A DNA stretch of 64,000 nucleotides from an uncultured Candidatus Saccharibacteria bacterium (lineage in GTDB: Bacteria; Patescibacteriota; Minisyncoccia; Phycocordibacterales; UBA918). Where the stretch lies: assembly GCA_964570795.1 (NCBI GenBank), contig CAZMYZ010000001.1:42722-106721 (forward strand). The letters run 5' to 3'. The translations under genes were made by a program, and so were the position numbers. Each line of letters begins with the position of its first letter. Within the stretch, counting starts at the first letter, position 1. This document shows, piece after piece, positions 300-57,981 of this stretch. The notes below the pieces were generated by a model. That model saw only the letters and a list, made by a program, of their open reading frames with translations, was not told where the DNA came from and ran no database searches.

Positions 300-1050
300 C
301 ATTCAATGTTTGGTTTCGTAAACCCAACATAATTACTCGAGAAGAAGTTTTGATGGTGTGGCAGTTCGTCTGTCTGAAATATTCTGAAGATATTTCTCTG
401 TACTCCTTTGCACATCCCCAAGTTTTTCTTGAAATAGTGTTGTGGTGAGTATAGAAGGGAAGTTTCTTTTGCCAAGGTAATCTTGATAACTGCTCCATCG
501 GTACTGAAGAAGATATTCTTGAAGGTGTGAGAATTCCAATCCTTGAGTTATTGAAGAATCTCGAACTCGCCATTCTTGCGCTCCCTCAAGATAGTCGAGT
601 GGGTTGAGGTGTATGTAGTGGAGGATATATAAAAAGTGAGCGTCTGTTTCGATATGAATTTTCTTTGTACGTCCTTGAAATAGAGTACCTTTTCTTTGAT
701 ATCGTTCATTAAAATAATTTGCGTATCCAACATTAAGTTTTCGCATGAAAAGAGAGATACCACCCTCTCTACGCTCTGAGAGAAGTAGATGATAATGATT
801 GTGCATGAGAACCCATGCATGTATATCAACCAAAATCTCACGTTCTTTAATTGTGTTATCAGTAATATCACCAGGACGCCGATTTGATTGTGGTGCTGGG
901 TTTGTATCGTTGAATTCATACATGTCGTGTATAAAACGAACATAATCGCCAGAGCCTTTAAAAAGAGTCCGGCCGTCAACACCCCTGTTCAAAACATGGA
1001 ATAACTCCATATGATACAAGTATACATGTTGGGTTTACGAAACCCAACAT
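300..1050 (-). mobile_element. IS200/IS605-like (RAYT-type) element: Y1 transposase flanked by 25-bp palindromic hairpins
   Basis: tnpA ORF 333..1019 is bracketed by ATGTTTGGTTTCGTAAACCCAACAT (306-330) and ATGTTGGGTTTACGAAACCCAACAT (1025-1049); each is an 11-bp-stem palindrome and the two are mutual inverted repeats with one mismatch. Confidence 0.7.
333..1019 (-). CDS. tnpA: IS200/IS605-family Y1 (HUH) transposase, REP-associated tyrosine transposase-like
   Basis: 228 aa; motifs HAWVLMHNHYHLLL (HuH) and GRTKKIHIETDAHFLYILHYIHLNP (catalytic Tyr region) match the Y1_Tnp/RAYT fold. Confidence 0.8.
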   Translation of the reverse strand: MYHMELFHVLNRGVDGRTLFKGSGDYVRFIHDMYEFNDTNPAPQSNRRPGDITDNTIKEREILVDIHAWVLMHNHYHLLLSERREGGISLFMRKLNVGYANYFNERYQRKGTLFQGRTKKIHIETDAHFLYILHYIHLNPLDYLEGAQEWRVRDSSITQGLEFSHLQEYLLQYRWSSYQDYLGKRNFPSILTTTLFQEKLGDVQRSTEKYLQNISDRRTATPSKLLLE

Positions 1051-9831: not shown

Positions 9832-10245
9832 ATGAAAGTAATAAAAATTTGTCTTGCTATTATTGTGGTACTCCTCACACTCGGTATCGGGTTTGGTGTG
9901 TATGTATGGTATACCATTCAGCACGTGCCTACGGCGGCGGATATCCCTGGACTTCAGCAATCGTCTGAGGCTACTCCATATGAAAATACTACAGCGACAC
10001 CTGATGCATCTGTAGTGAGTACCGAGAGCGTTGCTCCTATAGTAATAGAAACCAATACACTTTCAGAAACGCAGCAAGGAATGCTTGAGACGATGGGATA
10101 CACAAAGGACACAGTCACTATCACACCTGCAATGATTGTATGTGCCGAAGATGCGGTGGGGGATTCGCGTCTCAAGGAAATCACGGGAGGTGCTGCACCG
10201 AGTCCGCTTGAGTCTGTGAAACTGCTCCCATGCTTTAAACAATAG
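9832..10245 (+). CDS. hypothetical membrane-anchored protein
   Basis: Internal start MKVIKICLAIIVVLLTLGIGFGVYVW (TM anchor) followed by a Thr/Ser-rich extracellular region. Confidence 0.4.
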   Translation: MKVIKICLAIIVVLLTLGIGFGVYVWYTIQHVPTAADIPGLQQSSEATPYENTTATPDASVVSTESVAPIVIETNTLSETQQGMLETMGYTKDTVTITPAMIVCAEDAVGDSRLKEITGGAAPSPLESVKLLPCFKQ

Positions 10246-51958: not shown

Positions 51959-52414
51959 TTATTGGTACCAATCCTTTTCACGAGGAGTGCCCATCCCATA
52001 ATATTCGAGAAGTTGCACATTTGAATTGTTATGACTGAGTGGGCTTAATATAGCCCACGAGTCGTCGAATGTGTTGCATACCCCAGGAGGGAGATACTGT
52101 GCAGTTATTTTGAAAATGAACTCCGGGGGTACTTCTGGATATGGTGGGGGCACATAGAGCAAAACTCCAAAAAAATGCCTATAGCCAATTATGTCTGACT
52201 GAGGTTCGACGACAAAGTTGCATGCAATTTTGCAGAGTGAATCAAGTTCATCTGGCGTAAGTGTGCGTGCAAATTCTCGGTGTGTTGCCTTATAACATTT
52301 CGCCGAAAGATTTGCTCGAGCCAGGCTTACCACCTCGGGAGATATTTCTGAGTAAAGGCTTGTGAGCCATGCAAACATCTCTGCCGAGGAATATTTAGTA
52401 ATACTACTCGTCAT
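51959..52414 (-). CDS. hypothetical protein
   Basis: 151 aa ORF with no recognisable domain. Confidence 0.4.
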   Translation of the reverse strand: MTSSITKYSSAEMFAWLTSLYSEISPEVVSLARANLSAKCYKATHREFARTLTPDELDSLCKIACNFVVEPQSDIIGYRHFFGVLLYVPPPYPEVPPEFIFKITAQYLPPGVCNTFDDSWAILSPLSHNNSNVQLLEYYGMGTPREKDWYQ

Positions 52415-52469: not shown

Positions 52470-53645
52470 TCAAGTTGAGGCAGTTTCAAGCGAAAGATTT
52501 CCGTCTGCTTTGAGGTCGGCGAGGGCGCTGTAGGTGCGCGCATTCGCCACTTGTGTATGTCCTGCAAGGGCAATCATGACACTGTTGTCGGTGGAGAGAT
52601 TTTGGGGAGGGAAGTAGAGCGTGAGGTCGGGGTATTCATTTTTAAAAAATGTAGTGAAGGTTTCGCGGATGTACGTGTTTGCAGATACACCGCCACCGAC
52701 GATGAGTGTATTGATATTATGCGCATCAATTGCTCGTCGCGCTTTCTTTAGGAGTACTTCAGTGACCGCATCTTCAAAGTCACGCGCTATAGCATCGATA
52801 TCATCAGTACCTAATTCTTTTCCTTCAATAGCATAGCGTACGGCTGTTTTGAGTCCTGAGAATGAGAAATCAAGATTGTCCGTATCTATCATCGGGCGCG
52901 GAAGTAGTGCGAACTCAGGGAGATTGTCCGTGCGCGCTCTGCGCGCACGGACACCAATCTCCGGCCCACCGGGATACTGGAGTCCCAGCATACGTGCAAC
53001 TTTATCAAATGCCTCGCCTACCGCATCATCACGCGTCTCACCAACTTTTTTGAATGAAAGCCATTCTTCCATGAGGACGAGTTCGGTGTGTCCACCCGAG
53101 ATAAGGAGTGCGAGTGCAGGGAAGGAAAGAGCAGGGATGCTATTCGTAGTGAAAATAGATGAGAGTACATGCCCCTCCATATGATTGATAGGTACGACGG
53201 GCACCTGCCACGCGTAGGAAAGTGCACGTGCAAAATTGATACCCACCCAGAGTGCAGGCTCAAGGCCGGGGCCACTCGTGACTGCGATAAGGTCTATTTT
53301 GGGGAGTGCGTATGACTGGAGGAACTCGATAAATGTGTCTCCAAGCCCTGGTTCACGGTAGAGAATGGTTTGGAGGGTCTCAGATTCCTCTGGGGTGAGA
53401 GTATGTGCTCGTGCTTCGAGAAGTCCTGCTTCCTCGAGTGCACGTACGAGCATCGGTACGAGCGTTTTCGCATGCTCACGCTTCGCAAGTGCAGGGAAGA
53501 CACCCCCGTACTCGCGATGCAAGTCTATTTGTGAAAAAAGCGCATTCCCGAGGATGCGGTACGTTGCATTAGGGAAATCACCTATTGCCTCCACGATGCT
53601 TATAGCGGTTTCATCACACGACGTTTCAATGCTGAGGATAATCAT
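52470..53645 (-). CDS. tsaD: tRNA N6-adenosine threonylcarbamoyltransferase TsaD (Kae1/Gcp family)
   Basis: MIILSIETSCDETAISIV N-terminus, HMEGHVLS metal-binding motif and the ASKHF fold; 391 aa. Confidence 0.9.
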   Translation of the reverse strand: MIILSIETSCDETAISIVEAIGDFPNATYRILGNALFSQIDLHREYGGVFPALAKREHAKTLVPMLVRALEEAGLLEARAHTLTPEESETLQTILYREPGLGDTFIEFLQSYALPKIDLIAVTSGPGLEPALWVGINFARALSYAWQVPVVPINHMEGHVLSSIFTTNSIPALSFPALALLISGGHTELVLMEEWLSFKKVGETRDDAVGEAFDKVARMLGLQYPGGPEIGVRARRARTDNLPEFALLPRPMIDTDNLDFSFSGLKTAVRYAIEGKELGTDDIDAIARDFEDAVTEVLLKKARRAIDAHNINTLIVGGGVSANTYIRETFTTFFKNEYPDLTLYFPPQNLSTDNSVMIALAGHTQVANARTYSALADLKADGNLSLETAST

Positions 53646-53751
53646 GATGTGTACTCTACCGCACCTCTATGGGAATTACCATAGAAAACCCCCCGACTTT
53701 TCTTTGAAAAGGTGGGGGGATTCAATGTTATTCTCTAGGAAACTATATTTT

Positions 53752-54006
53752 TCAGAAGGCTTTAGGTAATATCAACAAATCAGCTATTCTATTGTAGTCG
53801 TCAATTTTTTGAAGATCTAAAAGTCTCTTCATTTCGGGTCTATACCTTGCTCTGATTTCTTCGAGAGTTTCTCTGTCTTCATCAGTTAATTCAAAATCTG
53901 GGTTAGATAATTTACTTTCAAGTTCTGTTAAAAAATTATTTTCGGATTTAATTCTTGTGAATAAATCATCTGCAATAATTTGTTCAAATTTATTTCCCAT
54001 TTCCAT
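53752..54006 (-). CDS. hypothetical small acidic protein
   Basis: 84 aa ORF in an AT-rich stretch. Confidence 0.35.
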   Translation of the reverse strand: MEMGNKFEQIIADDLFTRIKSENNFLTELESKLSNPDFELTDEDRETLEEIRARYRPEMKRLLDLQKIDDYNRIADLLILPKAF

Positions 54007-54039
54007 ATACTCTATATTCTAACATATTCACACTCATCT

Positions 54040-54337
54040 GAAATTTCTACGCTGTGGCTCGCATCAGGGTCCGGAAGCAAAGCCTTTTGCTTGGTGGTGT
54101 CAGGTTACTAATTCGCTGCTCCAATAAACTGTTCGTGGTCACGAATCGCTAACTATATTTCTTCGCTACGCTCGAAATCCAGTAAGCGTTCTCGACCCCC
54201 GCCTCGCGGTTTTTCTTTCTGAGAAGAAAGAAAAACATCGCTGTGGCTCGCACTGAGGTACGCAGGCAAAGCAGTTTGCCTGCTAAACCAAAAAACAATC
54301 ATTCCTAAGAATGATTGTTTTTTGGTTTACCTCAGTG
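54040..54337. repeat. tRNA-trailer repeat region: ~85-bp dispersed repeat plus two-hairpin module (copy 1 of 2)
   Basis: 54118-54210 (GTGGTCACGAATCGCTAAC...TTCTCGACCCCCGCCTCGCGG) is homologous to 60845-60925; 54251-54337 is CACTGAGGTA-[GCAGGCAAA-GCAG-TTTGCCTGC]-[TAAACCAAAAAACAATCATTC-CTAAGA-GAATGATTGTTTTTTGGTTTA]-TACCTCAGTG; CGCTGTGGCTCGCA occurs twice. Confidence 0.5.
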
Positions 54338-54485
54338 CGCGATACAGGACTTGAACATTACATGTTCCGTTCAGGTTGTATGACGATTTCTTCCGTTGGT
54401 CGAAATCGTCGACAACCTCTTCAAGTCCAGGGCGACTGTTTACTAAAAAAAGCCAGACACAAGGCCTGACTATTTTTAGTAAAAG
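54335..54485 (-). mobile_element. ~150-bp insertion at the tRNA-Val 3' end: 23-bp perfect direct repeat of the tRNA 3' end flanking a 127-bp element
   Basis: GTGCGCGATACAGGACTTGAAC occurs at 54335-54357 and again as the real tRNA-Val 3' end at 54485-54507; the intervening 127 bp starts ATTACATGTTCCGTTCAGG, resembles the tRNA-Ser(GGA) element and holds a long bulged hairpin (GACGATTTC...GAAATCGTC). Confidence 0.5.
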
Positions 54486-54558
54486 TGCGCGATACAGGAC
54501 TTGAACCTGTGACCCCCACAATGTCAATGTGATGCTCTACCAACTGAGCTAACCGCGC
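54486..54558 (-). tRNA. tRNA-Val (anticodon GAC)
   Basis: Acceptor GCGCGGT/ATCGCGC, D arm TAGCTCAGTTGGTAGAGCA, anticodon arm TCACA-TTGACAT-TGTGG, T arm ACAGG-TTCAAGT-CCTGT; no CCA encoded. Confidence 0.85.
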
Positions 54559-54668
54559 AAGTGAATACCAAATATAGCAGAGTATGTAATTTTACGAAAG
54601 TCGATAGTATGTCGTGTGGTGAAAATTCTTGAGAGAATATTTTTTAACGATACTATATAATAAAATGT

Positions 54669-55523
54669 ATGAATGAAGGTATTCCAATAGCACACAATGA
54701 AAGTGAATCACCGGAGCATGCATTCTTTCGTGAGATTGCAACATTACCGAGCGAGATTGCTCATAAATGGCTAAATGAATATGAAGACATGGATGAGTCA
54801 ACATCGGCATTTTTTGATCGATTTCAGTCTTTTTTAAGGATGAGACATGAGGCACTTAATAAAACTGTTGAAATGGAGGATGGTTTAAGTGATGAGCTGC
54901 GTAAAGAAGTCAACAGTGTCACCGATATTATAAGGAATACCTTCGGTGATATGAATTATTTTTTAGGAAATGGGTATACAGCGGAGGTGTATGAATTTCC
55001 CATTGCTCCACATTTGTGTGTTAAATATATCCACAATCAGGATGCATATAATGAGAATAATCACTTAAGAGTAGAATATGGATTTTTGGAGGAATTACGT
55101 ACGTTTACACATGGCGGTGTTCGTACACCTGTTCCATATTTTATTCGTATTCATCCGAGCGAGGGACATTCATATGGGATGGAGCGAATAATTGGAAAGA
55201 GCCTTTCGCAAATTCTTGAAAAACCTGAAGAAAATTTAGAGTTGGTGCTTATGGTGAAAAATATGAATAGAAAAGATGTAGAGGATAGATTGATTGGATA
55301 TGTCTCGGCGATATATGAACAATTTCATATCACACATGGAGATTTGTTTTTACGAAATATTATGCTTGATGAGAGTGGGGAATTCCGTGTTATAGATTTC
55401 GGGAAAGCAAAATATGAAGAATTGGGAGAGGATAATGAACGGTTTGCACGGGAAGATAAGGGGACCCTTACCTCAGAAATACGCACTTTTTTCGCAAAGA
55501 TTGACAAATTAGAAACAGTCTGA
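54669..55523 (+). CDS. atypical protein-kinase-like (PKL) fold protein (RIO/Bud32/Kdo-kinase-like HGD...DFG)
   Basis: 284 aa; FLGNGYTAEVYEF (Gly-rich loop region), HGDLFLRNIMLDESGEFRVIDFGKA (catalytic loop plus DFG); AT-rich gene next to tRNA-Val and repeat elements. Confidence 0.55.
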   Translation: MNEGIPIAHNESESPEHAFFREIATLPSEIAHKWLNEYEDMDESTSAFFDRFQSFLRMRHEALNKTVEMEDGLSDELRKEVNSVTDIIRNTFGDMNYFLGNGYTAEVYEFPIAPHLCVKYIHNQDAYNENNHLRVEYGFLEELRTFTHGGVRTPVPYFIRIHPSEGHSYGMERIIGKSLSQILEKPEENLELVLMVKNMNRKDVEDRLIGYVSAIYEQFHITHGDLFLRNIMLDESGEFRVIDFGKAKYEELGEDNERFAREDKGTLTSEIRTFFAKIDKLETV

Positions 55524-55559
55524 CATAATCTAAATTAGTTCATAATTATCGAGAGAGAA

Positions 55560-55745
55560 ATGGAAATAGCCCAATACATCATTGATGAAGCAAAAGAGGT
55601 GCTCTTGGAACATATTACGCTGCCGAAGCAACTGCAATCAGCGCCGGAATTTTATTTGGCCAATGCGGAAGATGCTGCGGTAAAAGCGTTTTATGGTTTC
55701 AAAGGAGGTGATGGAAAAGAATACAAAATTGGCGTTCTAAACTAG
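55560..55745 (+). CDS. hypothetical small protein
   Basis: 61 aa ORF directly downstream of the kinase-like gene, followed by a terminator. Confidence 0.35.
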   Translation: MEIAQYIIDEAKEVLLEHITLPKQLQSAPEFYLANAEDAAVKAFYGFKGGDGKEYKIGVLN

Positions 55746-55753
55746 TACGCTTT

Positions 55754-55786
55754 AAACCACCCAAAACACGGGTGGTTTACTTTTTA
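55754..55786 (+). terminator. rho-independent terminator
   Basis: AAACCACCC-AAAACAC-GGGTGGTTT-ACTTTTT. Confidence 0.6.
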
Positions 55787-55848
55787 CATTTGCGTGTTAT
55801 GGTTATTTCAGTCTCTGAATTGGTCAGAGTGTTCCAAGGAGAAAGTAG

Positions 55849-56106
55849 ATGTACAAGCAAGGCTTTGCTGTTTCTGTGGGGCAAGACGTCGTTCCGTCGG
55901 TCGCGGGTCGCATCTCCAATATGCTCCAAAAGCGCGTCGAAGATGCGGTGAACTACCGGCCGCTTACGGAAGGTGAAACACGTGGTATCGAGGGTATGCC
56001 CAACCATCTCATTGGTGCAATGGGGCGTCACAACTACCGCGACCATGTCGCTTCGACCACGGTCGGCCGCCAGGTGATTTTTATTCACGAGGTGCCGCAA
56101 TCCTGA
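55849..56106 (+). CDS. hypothetical small protein
   Basis: 85 aa ORF with a strong SD (AAGGAGAAAGTAG-ATG); preferred over the antisense ORF 55777..56139. Confidence 0.45.
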   Translation: MYKQGFAVSVGQDVVPSVAGRISNMLQKRVEDAVNYRPLTEGETRGIEGMPNHLIGAMGRHNYRDHVASTTVGRQVIFIHEVPQS

Positions 56107-56196
56107 GTTCTTCAATATCCCAAATCCCGGTGGCATCACATGCTGCCGGTTTTTTATTGCAAGAAAAGCGCGTATACTACGTCAGAATATATACAT

Positions 56197-57981
56197 ATGC
56201 ATACTGAAACGAAAGAAAAAGAAATACAACCGGCACTGAGTCGGCCATTTGCTTTTATGCGACATGTCTCGAGTGCTCATTCTGTGTGGTTCTTTTCGGT
56301 ACTTGCAGTGGTTTTTGTGGCACAGCTCGCAGGAACGAGTATTCCATATATTTTCAAGATGTTTATTGATACGGCGGGTATAATTGGGCGCGGCGAAGCC
56401 GCGCCCACGAGTATCTGGTTTGTAGTGATTCTTTTCCCACTTACGACTGCGTTTACATTTATTGCCTGGCGCATGAGTGGCTTTATTGGTATGGAGTGGG
56501 CGAGTCGCTCGAATGCTACGGCATACAAGACACTTTTCGGATACCTTGCGCATCATAGTCATTCATACTTTGCAGACCGCTTTGCAGGCTCGCTCTCGAG
56601 GAAGATAAGTCATGCAAGTGAGGGTGTGCAGTCACTTTTTGAGGCATTTATGTGGAGTTATGTACCTTCGATTCTCTCACTTATTATCACGGTAGGATAT
56701 ATTTGGTCGTCGAGCGTTACTATTGCAGGTATTTTCATTGGACTCATTGTACTTCTCGTGCCGCTCAACATCATGCTTGCGCGTTTTCGCCGCCCGCACG
56801 TGGTGGAGTTTTCCGCACAGGCAACGAAAGCACGTGGCTACGCCGTGGATGCCATTTCCAATATGGCCGCTATCCGCCAGTACGTGCGTATGGATGAGGA
56901 GAAGCGTGCTTTTGAAGCACATATCGACGAGATGCGTCGTCTTAATGTGAAGCAGTGGCGCATTAGCGAATGGGGACTTTTACTCAATAATGCCATCATC
57001 GTACTTTTTGAGGCGGCAATGCTCTATGTGTCGGTACATCTCTGGATGAGTACGCGGCTCACCACGGGTGAACTTATCATGATTGCCACACTCATGATGA
57101 ATGTGCAGAGTACGCTCGTCTTCATTGGTATGAGTATGAATGGCTTTATACGCCGCTATGCAGAAATACAAGAGGGTCTCTCAGACATCATAGTCCCCCA
57201 CGAGATACTTGATACTGAAAGGGCGAAATCTCTCGTTGTGCGCGAGGGAGCGATAGTCTGTGATCATGTACATTTCTCATATGGGAACGAGCCAGTCTTT
57301 AAAGACTTCTCACTCGCGATACGCTCGGGCGAGCGGGTGGGACTCGTGGGTACCAGTGGTGCAGGCAAGACTACACTTGTTTCACTTCTCCTTCGTCAGC
57401 ATGAAGTGCAGGAAGGAAGTATTAGTATCGATGGCCAAAATATCAGCATGATTACTCAAGACTCGCTTCGCGACCATATTGCTATCGTGCCGCAAGAGCC
57501 TCTCCTCTTCCATCGCTCCATACGCGAAAACATCGCCTATGGAAAGCCCGAAGCCACACAGGAGGAAATAGAAAGTGCTGCCGGAAAGGCGCAGGCACAT
57601 TTCTTTATTGAGTCACTCAGTGAAGGGTATAATACGCTCGTCGGCGAGCGAGGGGTGAAACTCTCTGGTGGTCAAAAGCAGCGTATTGCAATTGCACGCG
57701 CAATTTTAAAAAATGCACCGATTCTTATTCTCGATGAGGCTACAAGTGCGCTCGACAGTGAGAGCGAAGTAGCAATTCAAAAGGCATTACAGGAACTCAT
57801 GAAAGGGAAGACGGTGATTGCTATTGCACACCGTCTCTCAACACTGCGCGAGATGGATAGAATTGTGGTGCTTGAGAATGGTGTAATTGTGGAAGATGGT
57901 AATCACGAGTCACTCGCAAATGCAGGAGGTATCTACGCGCGACTCTGGGAACATCAGGCAGGAGGGTTTCTCGAGGAATAA
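56197..57981 (+). CDS. ABC transporter fused permease/ATPase (MsbA/multidrug-exporter type)
   Basis: 6-TM domain then an NBD with Walker A GTSGAGKTT, signature LSGGQKQRIAIARA and Walker B ILILDEATSALD; start taken at MHTETKEK. Confidence 0.85.
   Translation: MHTETKEKEIQPALSRPFAFMRHVSSAHSVWFFSVLAVVFVAQLAGTSIPYIFKMFIDTAGIIGRGEAAPTSIWFVVILFPLTTAFTFIAWRMSGFIGMEWASRSNATAYKTLFGYLAHHSHSYFADRFAGSLSRKISHASEGVQSLFEAFMWSYVPSILSLIITVGYIWSSSVTIAGIFIGLIVLLVPLNIMLARFRRPHVVEFSAQATKARGYAVDAISNMAAIRQYVRMDEEKRAFEAHIDEMRRLNVKQWRISEWGLLLNNAIIVLFEAAMLYVSVHLWMSTRLTTGELIMIATLMMNVQSTLVFIGMSMNGFIRRYAEIQEGLSDIIVPHEILDTERAKSLVVREGAIVCDHVHFSYGNEPVFKDFSLAIRSGERVGLVGTSGAGKTTLVSLLLRQHEVQEGSISIDGQNISMITQDSLRDHIAIVPQEPLLFHRSIRENIAYGKPEATQEEIESAAGKAQAHFFIESLSEGYNTLVGERGVKLSGGQKQRIAIARAILKNAPILILDEATSALDSESEVAIQKALQELMKGKTVIAIAHRLSTLREMDRIVVLENGVIVEDGNHESLANAGGIYARLWEHQAGGFLEE

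What the first reader, a model, noticed from the sequence alone, without database searches (positions are those of the whole stretch)
53750..55790. AT-rich islet next to tRNA-Val encoding an atypical HGD/DFG kinase-like protein, ~1 kb from tsaD
The 284-aa protein carries HGDLFLRNIMLDESGEFRVIDFGKA, the catalytic-loop/DFG arrangement of small atypical kinases (RIO, Bud32, Kdo kinase, APH). Its lower-GC composition and position beside a tRNA gene with integration scars suggest horizontal acquisition. A Bud32-like kinase is the partner of Kae1 (the TsaD orthologue) in archaeal/eukaryotic KEOPS, so a kinase of this class encoded 1 kb from tsaD in a bacterium would be notable if the relationship is real. 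It may equally be a lipid/sugar/antibiotic kinase. Two small ORFs (55560-55745, 55849-56106) follow.
Basis: inference. Interest (0 to 1): 0.55.

Follow-up and report, generated by a model that had tools for sequence, protein, structure and literature searches.

The report
CPR minimal kinase plus small partner
A stripped-down kinase-like enzyme and a tiny partner protein form a two-gene unit inherited across many ultra-small (CPR/Patescibacteria) bacteria; it was not recently acquired, it resembles the archaeal tRNA-modification kinase Bud32 only generically, and a working link to the neighbouring tsaD gene is possible but unproven.

Summary
A 284-aa ORF (54669-55523, +) carries an intact kinase catalytic core. 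It lies beside tRNA-Val, 1 kb from a bacterial-type tsaD, in an AT-rich stretch.

The protein is a minimal eukaryotic-like kinase of the loose Rio/Bud32/KdoK group. It has a family-specific N-terminal four-helix domain and only one helix after the DFG motif. It belongs to a large family (at least 515 clusters at 50% identity). All six genome hits are Patescibacteria MAGs.

In all 17 loci examined, a conserved orphan ORF of about 60-90 aa follows directly on the same strand. In the window a terminator closes this two-gene operon.

Low GC is a trait of the gene in 16 of 16 loci, so it does not indicate recent transfer. The tRNA-derived "scars" lie on the other side of the tRNA.

Linkage to tsaD is confined to one synteny class. 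The basal arrangement is pth-kinase-partner. Still, tsaD, tsaC or tsaE lie near the kinase in two to three contexts, so a t6A or translation role is not excluded (about 0.12).

The parts
54669..55523 (+). Gene for a 284-aa minimal atypical kinase, the first gene of the two-gene operon.
   Evidence: ORF. Pfam: Pkinase 30.5 bits, RIO1 25.1, APH 24.6. It has 80 close homologues and 515 representative clusters at E<=1e-10. The AF2 model has pLDDT 84.
54669..54953 (+). N-terminal helical domain specific to the family (residues 1-95; four helices at 15-23, 28-39, 46-64 and 75-91). R59 is nearly invariant across the wide family.
   Evidence: AF2 secondary structure and alignments A1 and A3. No Pfam or NCBIfam match covers this part.
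54954..55520 (+). Kinase core, residues 96-284. Gly-rich loop G100-N-G-x-T-A-E-V-Y108 (54966-54992). Beta3 Lys119 (55023-55025). AlphaC Glu136. Catalytic loop H223-G-D-L-F-L-R-N230 (55335-55358). D243-F-G (55395-55403). A single helix (257-279) follows the DFG motif.
55560..55745 (+). Gene for a 61-aa orphan partner protein: a helix, then P-x-F-Y-L-A, then Y-K-I-G. It starts 36 nt after the kinase stop codon.
   Evidence: An ORF lies directly downstream on the same strand in all 17 loci examined, at spacings of -14 to +56 nt. Clear sequence homology is seen in the 10 closer loci plus L036 and L037. In L015-L018 and L038 there is only a weak HMM hit or a shared pattern. There is no Pfam, NCBIfam, PADLOC or PDB relative.
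55753..55789 (+). Terminator-like hairpin (10 pairs) followed by a T-run, closing the kinase-partner operon.
54629..54660 (+). Promoter-like sequence. A TATAAT-like box lies only about 9 nt upstream of the kinase ATG, so the transcript may be nearly leaderless.
   Evidence: One search gives a weak consensus match (9 of 12). A similar box is present in L001. This is an inference.
54485..54558 (-). tRNA-Val(gac), divergent from the kinase gene. It is a neighbour, not part of the operon.
   Evidence: The same tRNA is in the same position in L001-3 and L011. In class B a tRNA-Pro(tgg) takes its place.
53646..54484 (.). Variable spacer on the 3' side of tRNA-Val. It holds the AT-rich orf84 (53752-54006, -), 44-nt repeats (54050 and 54239), a perfect 21-nt hairpin (54284-54329) and an exact 23-nt copy of the tRNA 3' end (54334-54356). 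It looks like the remnant of an integration site and is separate from the kinase module.
   Evidence: L001-3 carry two extra partial copies of the tRNA-Val 3' end, and their spacer content is otherwise unrelated. orf84 has no homologue in any related locus.
52470..53645 (-). tsaD, bacterial type, 391 aa, with an insertion of about 60 aa. It is a neighbour in synteny class A only.
   Evidence: TIGR03723 343 bits (cut-off 296). The Kae1 model scores 157 bits (cut-off 375). Synteny is shown.

Best explanation
The ORF encodes a catalytically competent minimal kinase or ATPase of the eukaryotic-like kinase superfamily, closest to the loose Rio/Bud32/KdoK group. It forms a vertically inherited two-gene operon with a 61-aa orphan protein. 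The family is found, as far as sampled, in Parcubacteria-type CPR bacteria.

Shown:
- The ATP-binding and phosphotransfer residues are invariant: the Gly-rich loop, the K119-E136 pair, H223/D225/N230 and D243.
- The fold is a kinase fold with no activation segment and no substrate-binding C-lobe.
- A family-specific four-helix domain precedes the core.
- The small ORF always follows on the same strand, and in the window a terminator comes after it.

Inferred: like RIO, Bud32 and OspG/NleH, which share this truncated architecture, the enzyme cannot hold a substrate by itself. It would use ATP binding, hydrolysis or phosphotransfer as a switch that depends on a bound partner. The co-expressed small protein would be the obligate activator, adaptor or first substrate.

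The cellular target is unknown. Neighbouring genes (pth in the basal arrangement; tRNA genes, tsaD, tsaC, tsaE, S1, HisRS and ValRS elsewhere) point loosely to translation or tRNA housekeeping. On this reading the 1-kb distance to tsaD in the window is lineage-specific synteny, not evidence of a KEOPS-like complex. The low GC is a property of the gene family, not a mark of recent transfer.
For: Catalytic motifs are invariant in 35 close and 131 distant members.

Structure:
- The AF2 model has pLDDT 84.2. It shows an N-terminal four-helix bundle, a kinase core, and one helix after the DFG motif.
- The best Foldseek match is Rio2.

Family scans:
- NCBIfam top hits are Bud32 and Kdo kinase, all far below their cut-offs.
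- In Pfam, RIO1 and APH are just above threshold over the catalytic loop only.

Family size and range:
- 515 clusters at 50% identity have E<=1e-10. Most listed full-length hits are about 280-350 aa.
- All genome hits are Patescibacteria MAGs.

Partner gene and operon:
- An ORF lies directly downstream in all 17 loci examined.
- Its sequence is conserved.
- A terminator follows it in the window.

Vertical inheritance:
- The locus is the same at 68% and 40% kinase identity.
- GC and GC3 are below the neighbour median in 16 of 16 loci.
- There is no phage match and no specific defence-system match.

The pth-kinase-partner arrangement, with gaps of 3-6 nt, occurs in L009, L036 and L037 and in rearranged form in L038. 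It is basal in the kinase tree.
Against: - No biochemical data exist and no partner contact was modelled. The partner's own AF2 model failed (pLDDT 54), so its proposed role is pure inference.
- t6A genes occur near family members more often than a rough chance estimate allows: tsaD in class A, tsaD plus tsaC in L010, and tsaE in L017. That is 2-3 of about 7 independent contexts, with p of roughly 0.005-0.02 under a crude model.
- Class A is not monophyletic in the kinase tree. The position beside tRNA-Val and tsaD may therefore have arisen twice, which would argue for selection and against mere synteny.
- Whether the window's own genome has tsaB and tsaE could not be determined.
Confidence: 0.6

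Rival explanations
1. A bacterial counterpart of Bud32. The kinase, perhaps with its small partner acting like Cgi121, would bind TsaD and use ATP hydrolysis to drive or regulate t6A37 formation on tRNA in these CPR bacteria, replacing or supplementing TsaE and TsaB.
For: - Bud32 models are the most frequent NCBIfam match: 124 of 131 members, best E 3.5e-16.
- The truncated architecture resembles Bud32.
- tsaD lies 1-3 kb away in the window, L001-3, L010 and L011.
- tsaC lies two genes upstream in L010, and tsaE is adjacent in L017.
- Class A is not monophyletic in the kinase tree.
- No tsaB or tsaE was found in the 64-kb window.
Against: - The score is 32.7 bits against a cut-off of 125. PDB profile scores do not discriminate: Bud32 28 bits, Rio1 27 bits, ordinary protein kinases 30-32 bits.
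- There is no conserved basic C-terminal tail or invariant Arg. That tail is required for t6A in KEOPS (PMC11621456).
- The pI is about 5.
- The extra N-terminal domain is absent from Bud32.
- The neighbouring TsaD is bacterial type.
- The kinase is never in one operon with a t6A gene; the orientations are divergent or convergent.
- Classes B and C, L016 and L018 have no t6A gene within 8-10 kb.
- A canonical TsaE coexists with the kinase in L017, and TsaE is common in Patescibacteria.
Confidence: 0.12
2. A small-molecule kinase of the APH, choline, Kdo or fructosamine type that phosphorylates an antibiotic, sugar or lipid.
For: - Pfam APH scores 24.6 bits, just above its cut-off of 23.2.
- The H-G-D-L-x-x-x-N catalytic loop is shared with these families.
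- Kdo-kinase models match many members weakly.
Against: - The APH match covers only residues 217-254, which is the catalytic loop and DFG motif.
- Only one helix follows the DFG motif, so there is no helical substrate-binding subdomain.
- Kdo-kinase scores are below cut-off: 17.9 against 21.3, and 22.6 against 142.
- Conserved coupling to a small protein and the housekeeping neighbourhoods do not fit a resistance gene.
Confidence: 0.08
3. A toxin-antitoxin or defence-type module, or cargo of a tRNA-targeted mobile island. In this view the kinase is the toxin or effector and the small ORF is the antidote.
For: - The two genes are tightly coupled, with a small acidic second gene.
- The gene is AT-richer than its surroundings.
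- Att-like tRNA repeats lie close by.
- There are weak matches to defence kinase models PD-T4-6 and mad6.
- The module occupies at least four different genomic contexts, and the tree suggests relocation.
Against: - The position is stable across deep divergence.
- The gene is AT-rich in every lineage, so the bias does not reflect recent transfer.
- The repeats are on the opposite side of the tRNA.
- No integrase or transposase lies beside the module.
- There is no phage or plasmid-like context.
- The PADLOC matches are generic kinase-domain similarity of 28 bits or less.
- It forms an operon with pth in several lineages.
Confidence: 0.06
4. An RNA or tRNA kinase like archaeal ArkI, or a ribosome-maturation ATPase like RIO, acting directly on tRNA or rRNA.
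For: - A tRNA gene lies directly upstream in classes A and B.
- Neighbours include pth, S1, YbeY, HisRS and the CCA-adding enzyme.
Against: - The ArkI signature motifs (HGQ, DFE, a C-terminal YKR and a positive patch; PMC9095486) are absent. This family has HGD and DFG and an acidic pI of about 5.
- The RIO signature loop (STGKEA) and the ID-x-x-Q motif are replaced by GNGxTAEVY and IDFGK.
- Translation-related genes are so common in CPR genomes that these neighbourhoods are not statistically distinctive (my own estimate).
Confidence: 0.1

Closest known systems
RIO kinases (Rio1/Rio2; Pfam PF01163)
   Different: The STGKEA loop and the ID-x-x-Q metal loop are not present; this family has GNGxTAEVY and IDFGK. 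The Pfam match covers only 56 residues. The protein is acidic. It has an obligate small partner gene. It is restricted to CPR bacteria.
Bud32/PRPK, the KEOPS kinase/ATPase (TIGR03724, COG3642)
   Same: Both are truncated kinases with an H-G-D-L and I-D-F-G core. Bud32 is the most frequent weak NCBIfam match, and IMG auto-names family members 'Bud32'. In some lineages the gene lies near tsaD, tsaC or tsaE.
OspG/NleH minimal effector kinases
   Different: They are secreted virulence effectors of proteobacteria with no dedicated partner gene. There is no sequence orthology.
Kdo kinase / LPS kinase family (PF06293, PRK01723)
   Same: It belongs to the same loose Rio-Bud32-KdoK cluster of eukaryotic-like kinases (PMC1821047). 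116 of 131 members match weakly.
   Different: Scores are below cut-off.
ArkI (AQ578 family), tRNA 2'-kinase
   Different: ArkI has HGQ and DFE motifs, a YKR C-terminal motif and a positive RNA-binding patch (PMC9095486). This family has HGD and DFG, no YKR motif, and an acidic surface charge overall.

Membership tests
Bud32 (KEOPS kinase/ATPase; TIGR03724, PRK14879, COG3642) | Scores above the curated family cut-off. | tested here: not met
   TIGR03724 scores 32.7 bits against a cut-off of 125. The PRK14879 variants score 16-28 bits against cut-offs of 174-372. The best E-value among 131 relatives is 3.5e-16, which by my estimate is about 60 bits.
Bud32 (KEOPS kinase/ATPase; TIGR03724, PRK14879, COG3642) | Truncated kinase fold without an activation segment. 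| tested here: met
   The AF2 model shows one helix after the DFG motif and no APE segment. RIO, OspG and ArkI share this feature, so it does not discriminate.
Bud32 (KEOPS kinase/ATPase; TIGR03724, PRK14879, COG3642) | Conserved basic C-terminal tail with an invariant Arg, required for t6A (PMC11621456). | tested here: not met
   In alignment A1 the sequence after F274/F275 is variable and mostly acidic or neutral, with no invariant Arg. The whole protein has pI 4.9 and the family median is 5.1.
Bud32 (KEOPS kinase/ATPase; TIGR03724, PRK14879, COG3642) | Bud32 is the closest solved structure or sequence. | tested here: not met
Bud32 (KEOPS kinase/ATPase; TIGR03724, PRK14879, COG3642) | Partner enzyme is Kae1 (archaeal/eukaryotic type), often fused or adjacent. 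| tested here: not met
   The neighbour is a bacterial TsaD: TIGR03723 343 bits (cut-off 296), and the Kae1 model 157 bits (cut-off 375). Adjacency occurs only in class A and is absent in classes B and C, L016 and L018.
Bud32 (KEOPS kinase/ATPase; TIGR03724, PRK14879, COG3642) | Genome lacks the bacterial auxiliaries TsaB and TsaE (replacement scenario). | tested here: inconclusive
   Neither gene is in the 64-kb window. The rest of the genome could not be read. In L017 a canonical TsaE (115.8 bits, cut-off 60.1) lies next to a family member. TsaE is widespread in Patescibacteria.
Bud32 (KEOPS kinase/ATPase; TIGR03724, PRK14879, COG3642) | Physical binding to Kae1/TsaD and ATPase activity needed for t6A. 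| not testable with these tools
   This needs multimer modelling or biochemistry.
RIO kinases (PF01163) | Pfam RIO1 score above the gathering threshold. | tested here: met
   The score is 25.1 bits against 22, but only residues 196-251 match. 74 of 131 relatives match at E<=1e-3.
RIO kinases (PF01163) | RIO signature motifs: the STGKEA nucleotide loop and the ID-x-x-Q metal loop (established knowledge of the family). | tested here: not met
   The family consensus is LGNGxTAEVY and VIDFGKA.
RIO kinases (PF01163) | Structural similarity to the RIO domain. | tested here: inconclusive
APH / choline kinase type small-molecule kinases (PF01636, PF01633) | Family score above cut-off across the domain. 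| tested here: inconclusive
   APH scores 24.6 against 23.2, but only residues 217-254 match. Choline_kinase scores 17.4 against 29. APH(3') scores 17.8 against 205.
APH / choline kinase type small-molecule kinases (PF01636, PF01633) | Helical C-terminal substrate-binding subdomain after the metal-binding loop. | tested here: not met
Hanks-type Ser/Thr protein kinases (PF00069) | Pfam score above gathering, plus an activation segment (APE) and the alphaF-alphaI lobe. | tested here: not met
   The score is 30.5 bits against 31.7, and the match stops at profile position 153 of 263. The model lacks these elements.
ArkI / AQ578 RNA kinases | HGQ catalytic loop, DFE metal loop, C-terminal YKR motif and a positive patch (PMC9095486). 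| tested here: not met
   This family has HGD and DFG, no YKR motif, and a pI of about 5.
tRNA-targeted genomic island | Cargo lies on the 3' side of the tRNA, between direct repeats of the tRNA 3' end, with an integrase. | tested here: not met
   The repeats exist (54334-54356 and 54484-54506) but enclose only 127 bp on the 3' side. The kinase is on the 5' side. No integrase was seen nearby.

The most novel reading that the evidence does not exclude
The kinase and its small partner are a CPR-specific auxiliary of tRNA t6A synthesis: a bacterial functional counterpart of Bud32-Cgi121 that acts on a bacterial-type TsaD, with or without TsaE. More broadly, they could be a translation-linked ATP switch tied to pth and tRNA turnover. 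The recurrent proximity to tsaD, tsaC and tsaE, and the apparently repeated placement beside tRNA-Val and tsaD, would then reflect function.
Probability: 0.12. Interest if true: 0.85.

Novelty: new variant of a known kind. Interest (0 to 1): 0.4.

Why it matters
CPR/Patescibacteria have very small genomes, so a two-gene unit kept across hundreds of lineages probably does something basic, yet no function is assigned to it. NCBI calls it hypothetical, and IMG auto-labels it "Bud32".

This work shows that the label rests on generic kinase similarity, which prevents a false KEOPS-in-bacteria inference from spreading. It also defines the real unit (kinase, orphan partner, terminator) and its ancestral pth-linked context, and so gives a concrete target for experiments.

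If the weak t6A association proved real, it would show a third way of assisting TsaD/Kae1 and would bear on how the auxiliary subunits of this universal tRNA modification evolved.

Tried and rejected
- **Horizontal-acquisition reading.** Rejected after comparing GC and GC3 in 16 loci and synteny.
- **Integrase check.** The 298-aa gene between tsaD and tRNA-Val in L011 is a DHH/DHHA1 phosphoesterase, not an integrase.
- **Broader locus sampling.**
  - My own degenerate DNA pattern found 16 metagenome loci, none a true family member.
  - The viral-contig scan gave one irrelevant partial hit.
- **Placing TsaE in the same genomes by matching contig lengths.** No length matched, and the cluster look-up returned truncated names without organisms.
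- **Flank look-ups for the window.** They returned only short Logan contigs and no tsaB or tsaE.
- **Structure of the partner protein.** The 3-sequence job gave pLDDT 54, which is unusable, so no fold search was run on it.
- **AFDB Foldseek library.** Unavailable.
- **Relatives of the partner.** Pfam and PDB profile searches found nothing.
- **PADLOC and phage searches.** Only generic matches or none.
- **Literature searches.** Searches for Bud32, COG3642, TsaE or t6A together with CPR bacteria found nothing relevant.
- **Rfam scan.** Only the tRNA was found in 53500-56300.
Full report
**1. The observation**

The ORF at 54669-55523 (+) encodes 284 aa and contains HGDLFLRNIMLDESGEFRVIDFGKA. tRNA-Val(gac) lies at 54485-54558 (-). 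tsaD lies at 52470-53645 (-) and passes the curated TsaD model, with 343 bits against a cut-off of 296. GC falls to 0.34-0.40 between about 53600 and 55800, against 0.45-0.54 on either side. An exact 23-nt copy of the tRNA 3' end sits 150 bp downstream of the tRNA, and shuffled sequence gave no such match.

**2. What the protein is**

Family scans give only generic kinase matches.
- Pfam: Pkinase scores 30.5 bits (cut-off 31.7), RIO1 25.1 (cut-off 22) and APH 24.6 (cut-off 23.2). The RIO1 and APH matches cover only the catalytic loop and DFG region.
- NCBIfam: the top hit is archaeal Bud32, but at 32.7 bits against a cut-off of 125. Kdo kinase, lanthionine-synthetase kinase domains and others follow closely.
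- A family profile searched against PDB sequences scores ordinary protein kinases at 30-32 bits, Bud32 at 28 bits and Rio1 at 27 bits.

An AlphaFold2 model built on 35 sequences is confident (pLDDT 84.2). It shows four N-terminal helices (residues 15-91), a normal kinase N-lobe and hinge, helices alphaD and alphaE, the catalytic loop, the DFG motif, an 11-residue loop, and then a single C-terminal helix. There is no activation segment and no substrate-binding lobe.

Structural searches agree on a generic kinase fold.
- The minimal kinases OspG (13.5), Ark1 (13.2) and NleH1 (13.1) also appear.
- No Bud32, APH or choline kinase is in the top 60.
- The best Foldseek match is Rio2.

The nucleotide loop LGNGxTAEVY, the H-G-D-L-x-x-R-N catalytic loop and the I-D-F-G-K motif place the family in the loose Rio/Bud32/KdoK cluster described by Kannan et al. 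(PMC1821047). It lacks the signature motifs of each named family in that cluster.

**3. The family and its constant partner**

The word-indexed search found 80 homologues of 36-100% identity, most of them 280-310 aa. IMG names many of them "Bud32", which is an automatic label. The exhaustive profile search found 515 representative clusters at E<=1e-10, and most listed full-length hits are about 280-350 aa and match the profile from about position 10 to beyond 250. All six genome hits are Patescibacteria MAGs: Kaiserbacteria, Parcubacteria OLB19, 'Elulimicrobium', an unclassified Patescibacteria-group bacterium and one labelled Saccharibacteria. A further member comes from a Nomurabacteria MAG.

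K119, E136, H223, N230 and D243 are invariant in 131 diverse members, and R59 of the N-terminal domain is nearly so. The enzyme is therefore under selection to bind and use ATP.

In all 17 loci I could read, a small ORF of about 60-90 aa follows the kinase on the same strand at -14 to +56 nt. Its sequence pattern is a helix, then P-x-F-[YF]-[LV]-A, then Y-K-I-G. It is clearly conserved in the 10 closer loci and in L036 and L037. In L015-L018 and L038 it is recognisable only as a weak HMM hit or a shared pattern. In the window this is ORF 55560-55745, and a terminator-like hairpin follows at 55753-55779.

The partner has no relative in Pfam, NCBIfam, PADLOC or PDB sequences. Its own structure prediction failed (pLDDT 54).

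**4. Was the gene recently acquired?**

The evidence says no.
- The same arrangement (ValRS, tsaD, tRNA-Val, kinase, partner, ABC transporter) is present around a kinase that is 68% identical (L001-3).
- The core of that arrangement (tsaD, tRNA-Val, kinase, partner) is present at 40% identity (L011).
- The kinase gene has lower GC and GC3 than the median neighbouring gene in 16 of 16 loci. These span the whole family and genome GC from 0.34 to 0.54. AT-richness is therefore a standing property of this gene. I have no explanation for it.
- No phage match, no specific defence-system match, and no integrase or flanking repeats were found.

The tRNA-derived repeats are real, but they lie on the 3' side of the tRNA, in the spacer toward tsaD (53646-54484). 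That spacer also holds the very AT-rich orf84 and other repeats, and it is unrelated in sequence to the spacer of L001-3. L001-3 have two extra partial copies of the tRNA-Val 3' end of their own. The spacer thus looks like a recurrent integration site. The kinase, on the 5' side, is not part of it.

**5. The link to tsaD**

Four kinds of context were found.
- **Class A** (window, L001-3, L011): tsaD, then tRNA-Val (-), then kinase (+) and partner.
- **L010**: tsaD (-), ABC transporter, tRNA-Val, tsaC (185.9 bits against a cut-off of 123.2), one ORF, then kinase and partner.
- **Class B** (L004, L005, L007, L008, L012): tRNA-Arg, tRNA-Gly, tRNA-Pro (-), sometimes NUDIX, then kinase, partner and CorA. 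No t6A gene lies within 10 kb.
- **Class C** (L009, L036, L037, and L038 rearranged): pth directly upstream with a gap of 3-6 nt, then kinase and partner, then a convergent S1 gene. HisRS, signal peptidase, YbeY and FtsA/FtsZ are nearby.

Three other loci stand alone. L017 has lsp, kinase and partner, followed by a convergent canonical tsaE (115.8 bits against a cut-off of 60.1). L016 and L018 have no translation gene adjacent.

In a neighbour-joining tree, class C is basal and paraphyletic, so the pth-linked operon is probably the ancestral arrangement. Class A is not monophyletic. The window and L001 group with class B members at 100% bootstrap, while L010 and L011 lie outside that group.

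Two things follow.

First, the constant feature of the family is the partner gene, not tsaD. The kinase is never in one operon with a t6A gene. A canonical TsaE coexists with the kinase in at least one lineage, and TsaE is abundant in Patescibacteria. Simple replacement of TsaE by a Bud32-like protein is therefore not general.

Second, t6A genes (tsaD, tsaC, tsaE) do turn up near the kinase in two to three of about seven independent contexts. Under a crude model (four t6A genes per roughly 1,000 genes, four to six flanking positions) this has a probability of about 0.005-0.02. The tree also hints that the position beside tRNA-Val and tsaD may have arisen twice. Allele exchange by recombination is an alternative explanation for the tree, because gene flow is visible here: L001 and L003 share an identical kinase with L002, yet their ValRS is 46% identical to the window's while L002's is 83% identical. 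I could not enlarge the sample or read whole genomes, so this remains a lead.

**6. Bud32 membership**

Tested and not met:
- the family score;
- Bud32 as the nearest structure;
- the basic C-terminal tail with its invariant Arg, which is required for t6A in KEOPS (PMC11621456; alignment);
- a Kae1-type partner enzyme.

The family is acidic, with a median pI of 5.1, whereas ArkI, a minimal kinase that acts directly on tRNA, presents a positive binding patch. The ArkI motifs HGQ, DFE and YKR are likewise absent. Absence of tsaB and tsaE was inconclusive: neither is in the window, but the rest of the genome was out of reach.

**7. Most likely mechanism**

Shown: the ATP site is intact and conserved, the C-lobe is truncated, and a small protein is always co-encoded.

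Inferred: the enzyme works as RIO, Bud32 and OspG/NleH do, as an ATP-driven switch or kinase whose activity and target depend on a bound partner. The 61-aa protein would be that partner or the first substrate. The target process is unknown. The neighbourhoods lean toward translation and tRNA housekeeping, but such genes are so frequent in CPR genomes that this is weak evidence.

I give 0.6 to this account, with tsaD proximity treated as synteny. I give 0.12 to a genuine t6A role. Smaller shares go to an RNA or ribosome-directed role, a small-molecule kinase, and a toxin or defence module.

**8. Novelty and score**

This is an uncharacterised variant of a known kind of enzyme. What distinguishes it is its N-terminal domain, its obligate orphan partner, and its occurrence so far only in Patescibacteria. 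Searches of the literature found no description of it. It is of moderate interest as it stands (0.4) and would be of high interest if the t6A link were confirmed.

Noticed in passing
window 53646-54484: The spacer between tsaD and tRNA-Val looks like a remnant of an integration site. It holds a very AT-rich 84-aa ORF (53752-54006, GC 0.30) with no homologue in related loci, a 44-nt repeat pair (54050 and 54239), a perfect 21-nt hairpin (54284-54329), and an exact 23-nt copy of the tRNA-Val 3' end (54334-54356). L001-3 carry two further partial copies of the same tRNA end and otherwise unrelated spacer sequence.
   Followed up: partly
window 54669-55523 and 15 related loci: The kinase gene has lower GC and GC3 than the median neighbouring gene in 16 of 16 loci, whatever the genome GC (0.34-0.54). 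In the window it has the lowest GC3 of 49 genes. The cause is unknown.
   Followed up: partly
window 51959-52414 (-): A 151-aa ORF lies between tsaD and valS on the same strand. It has no Pfam or NCBIfam match. It is present in L002 (39% identity) but absent from L001 and L003.
   Followed up: partly
window 52470-53645 (-); L010 5415-6611; L011 3235-4404: The TsaD of this clade is 389-416 aa. It matches the TsaD model in two stretches, which implies an insertion of about 60 aa after roughly residue 45.
   Followed up: no
window 55849-56106 (+), overlapping 55777-56139 (-): A GC-rich ORF (GC 0.56, GC3 0.63) lies between two terminator-like hairpins (55753-55779 and 56127-56149). It is not found in any related locus. 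The second hairpin overlaps the first ATG of the ABC transporter ORF, whose true start is probably further downstream, since homology begins at residue 31.
   Followed up: partly
L001/L003 5309-7522 versus L002 4813-7068: Contigs that encode the identical kinase protein (P0005) carry ValRS genes that are 46% and 83% identical to the window's ValRS. This suggests replacement of valS by a distant version within one population.
   Followed up: no
L009 9327-10780; L036 7461-8861; L037 7470-8870: The peptidyl-tRNA hydrolase gene (pth) ends 3-6 nt before the kinase start in three lineages, and the same neighbours (pth, S1) surround the kinase in rearranged order in L038. This is the most widely kept neighbourhood of the family.
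   Followed up: partly
L004 9064-9160 (-): ARAGORN calls a 97-nt tRNA-Pro(ggg) directly beside tRNA-Pro(tgg). It could be an intron-bearing tRNA or a false call.
   Followed up: no
window 333-1019 (-): A 228-aa ORF corresponds to a gene that has a weak Pfam Y1 transposase (IS200/REP-associated type) hit in the matching Logan contig L014.
   Followed up: no
window 54650-54668; L001 about 9980-10000: A TATAAT-like box lies only about 9 nt upstream of the kinase start codon in both the window and L001. This suggests a nearly leaderless transcript.
   Followed up: no
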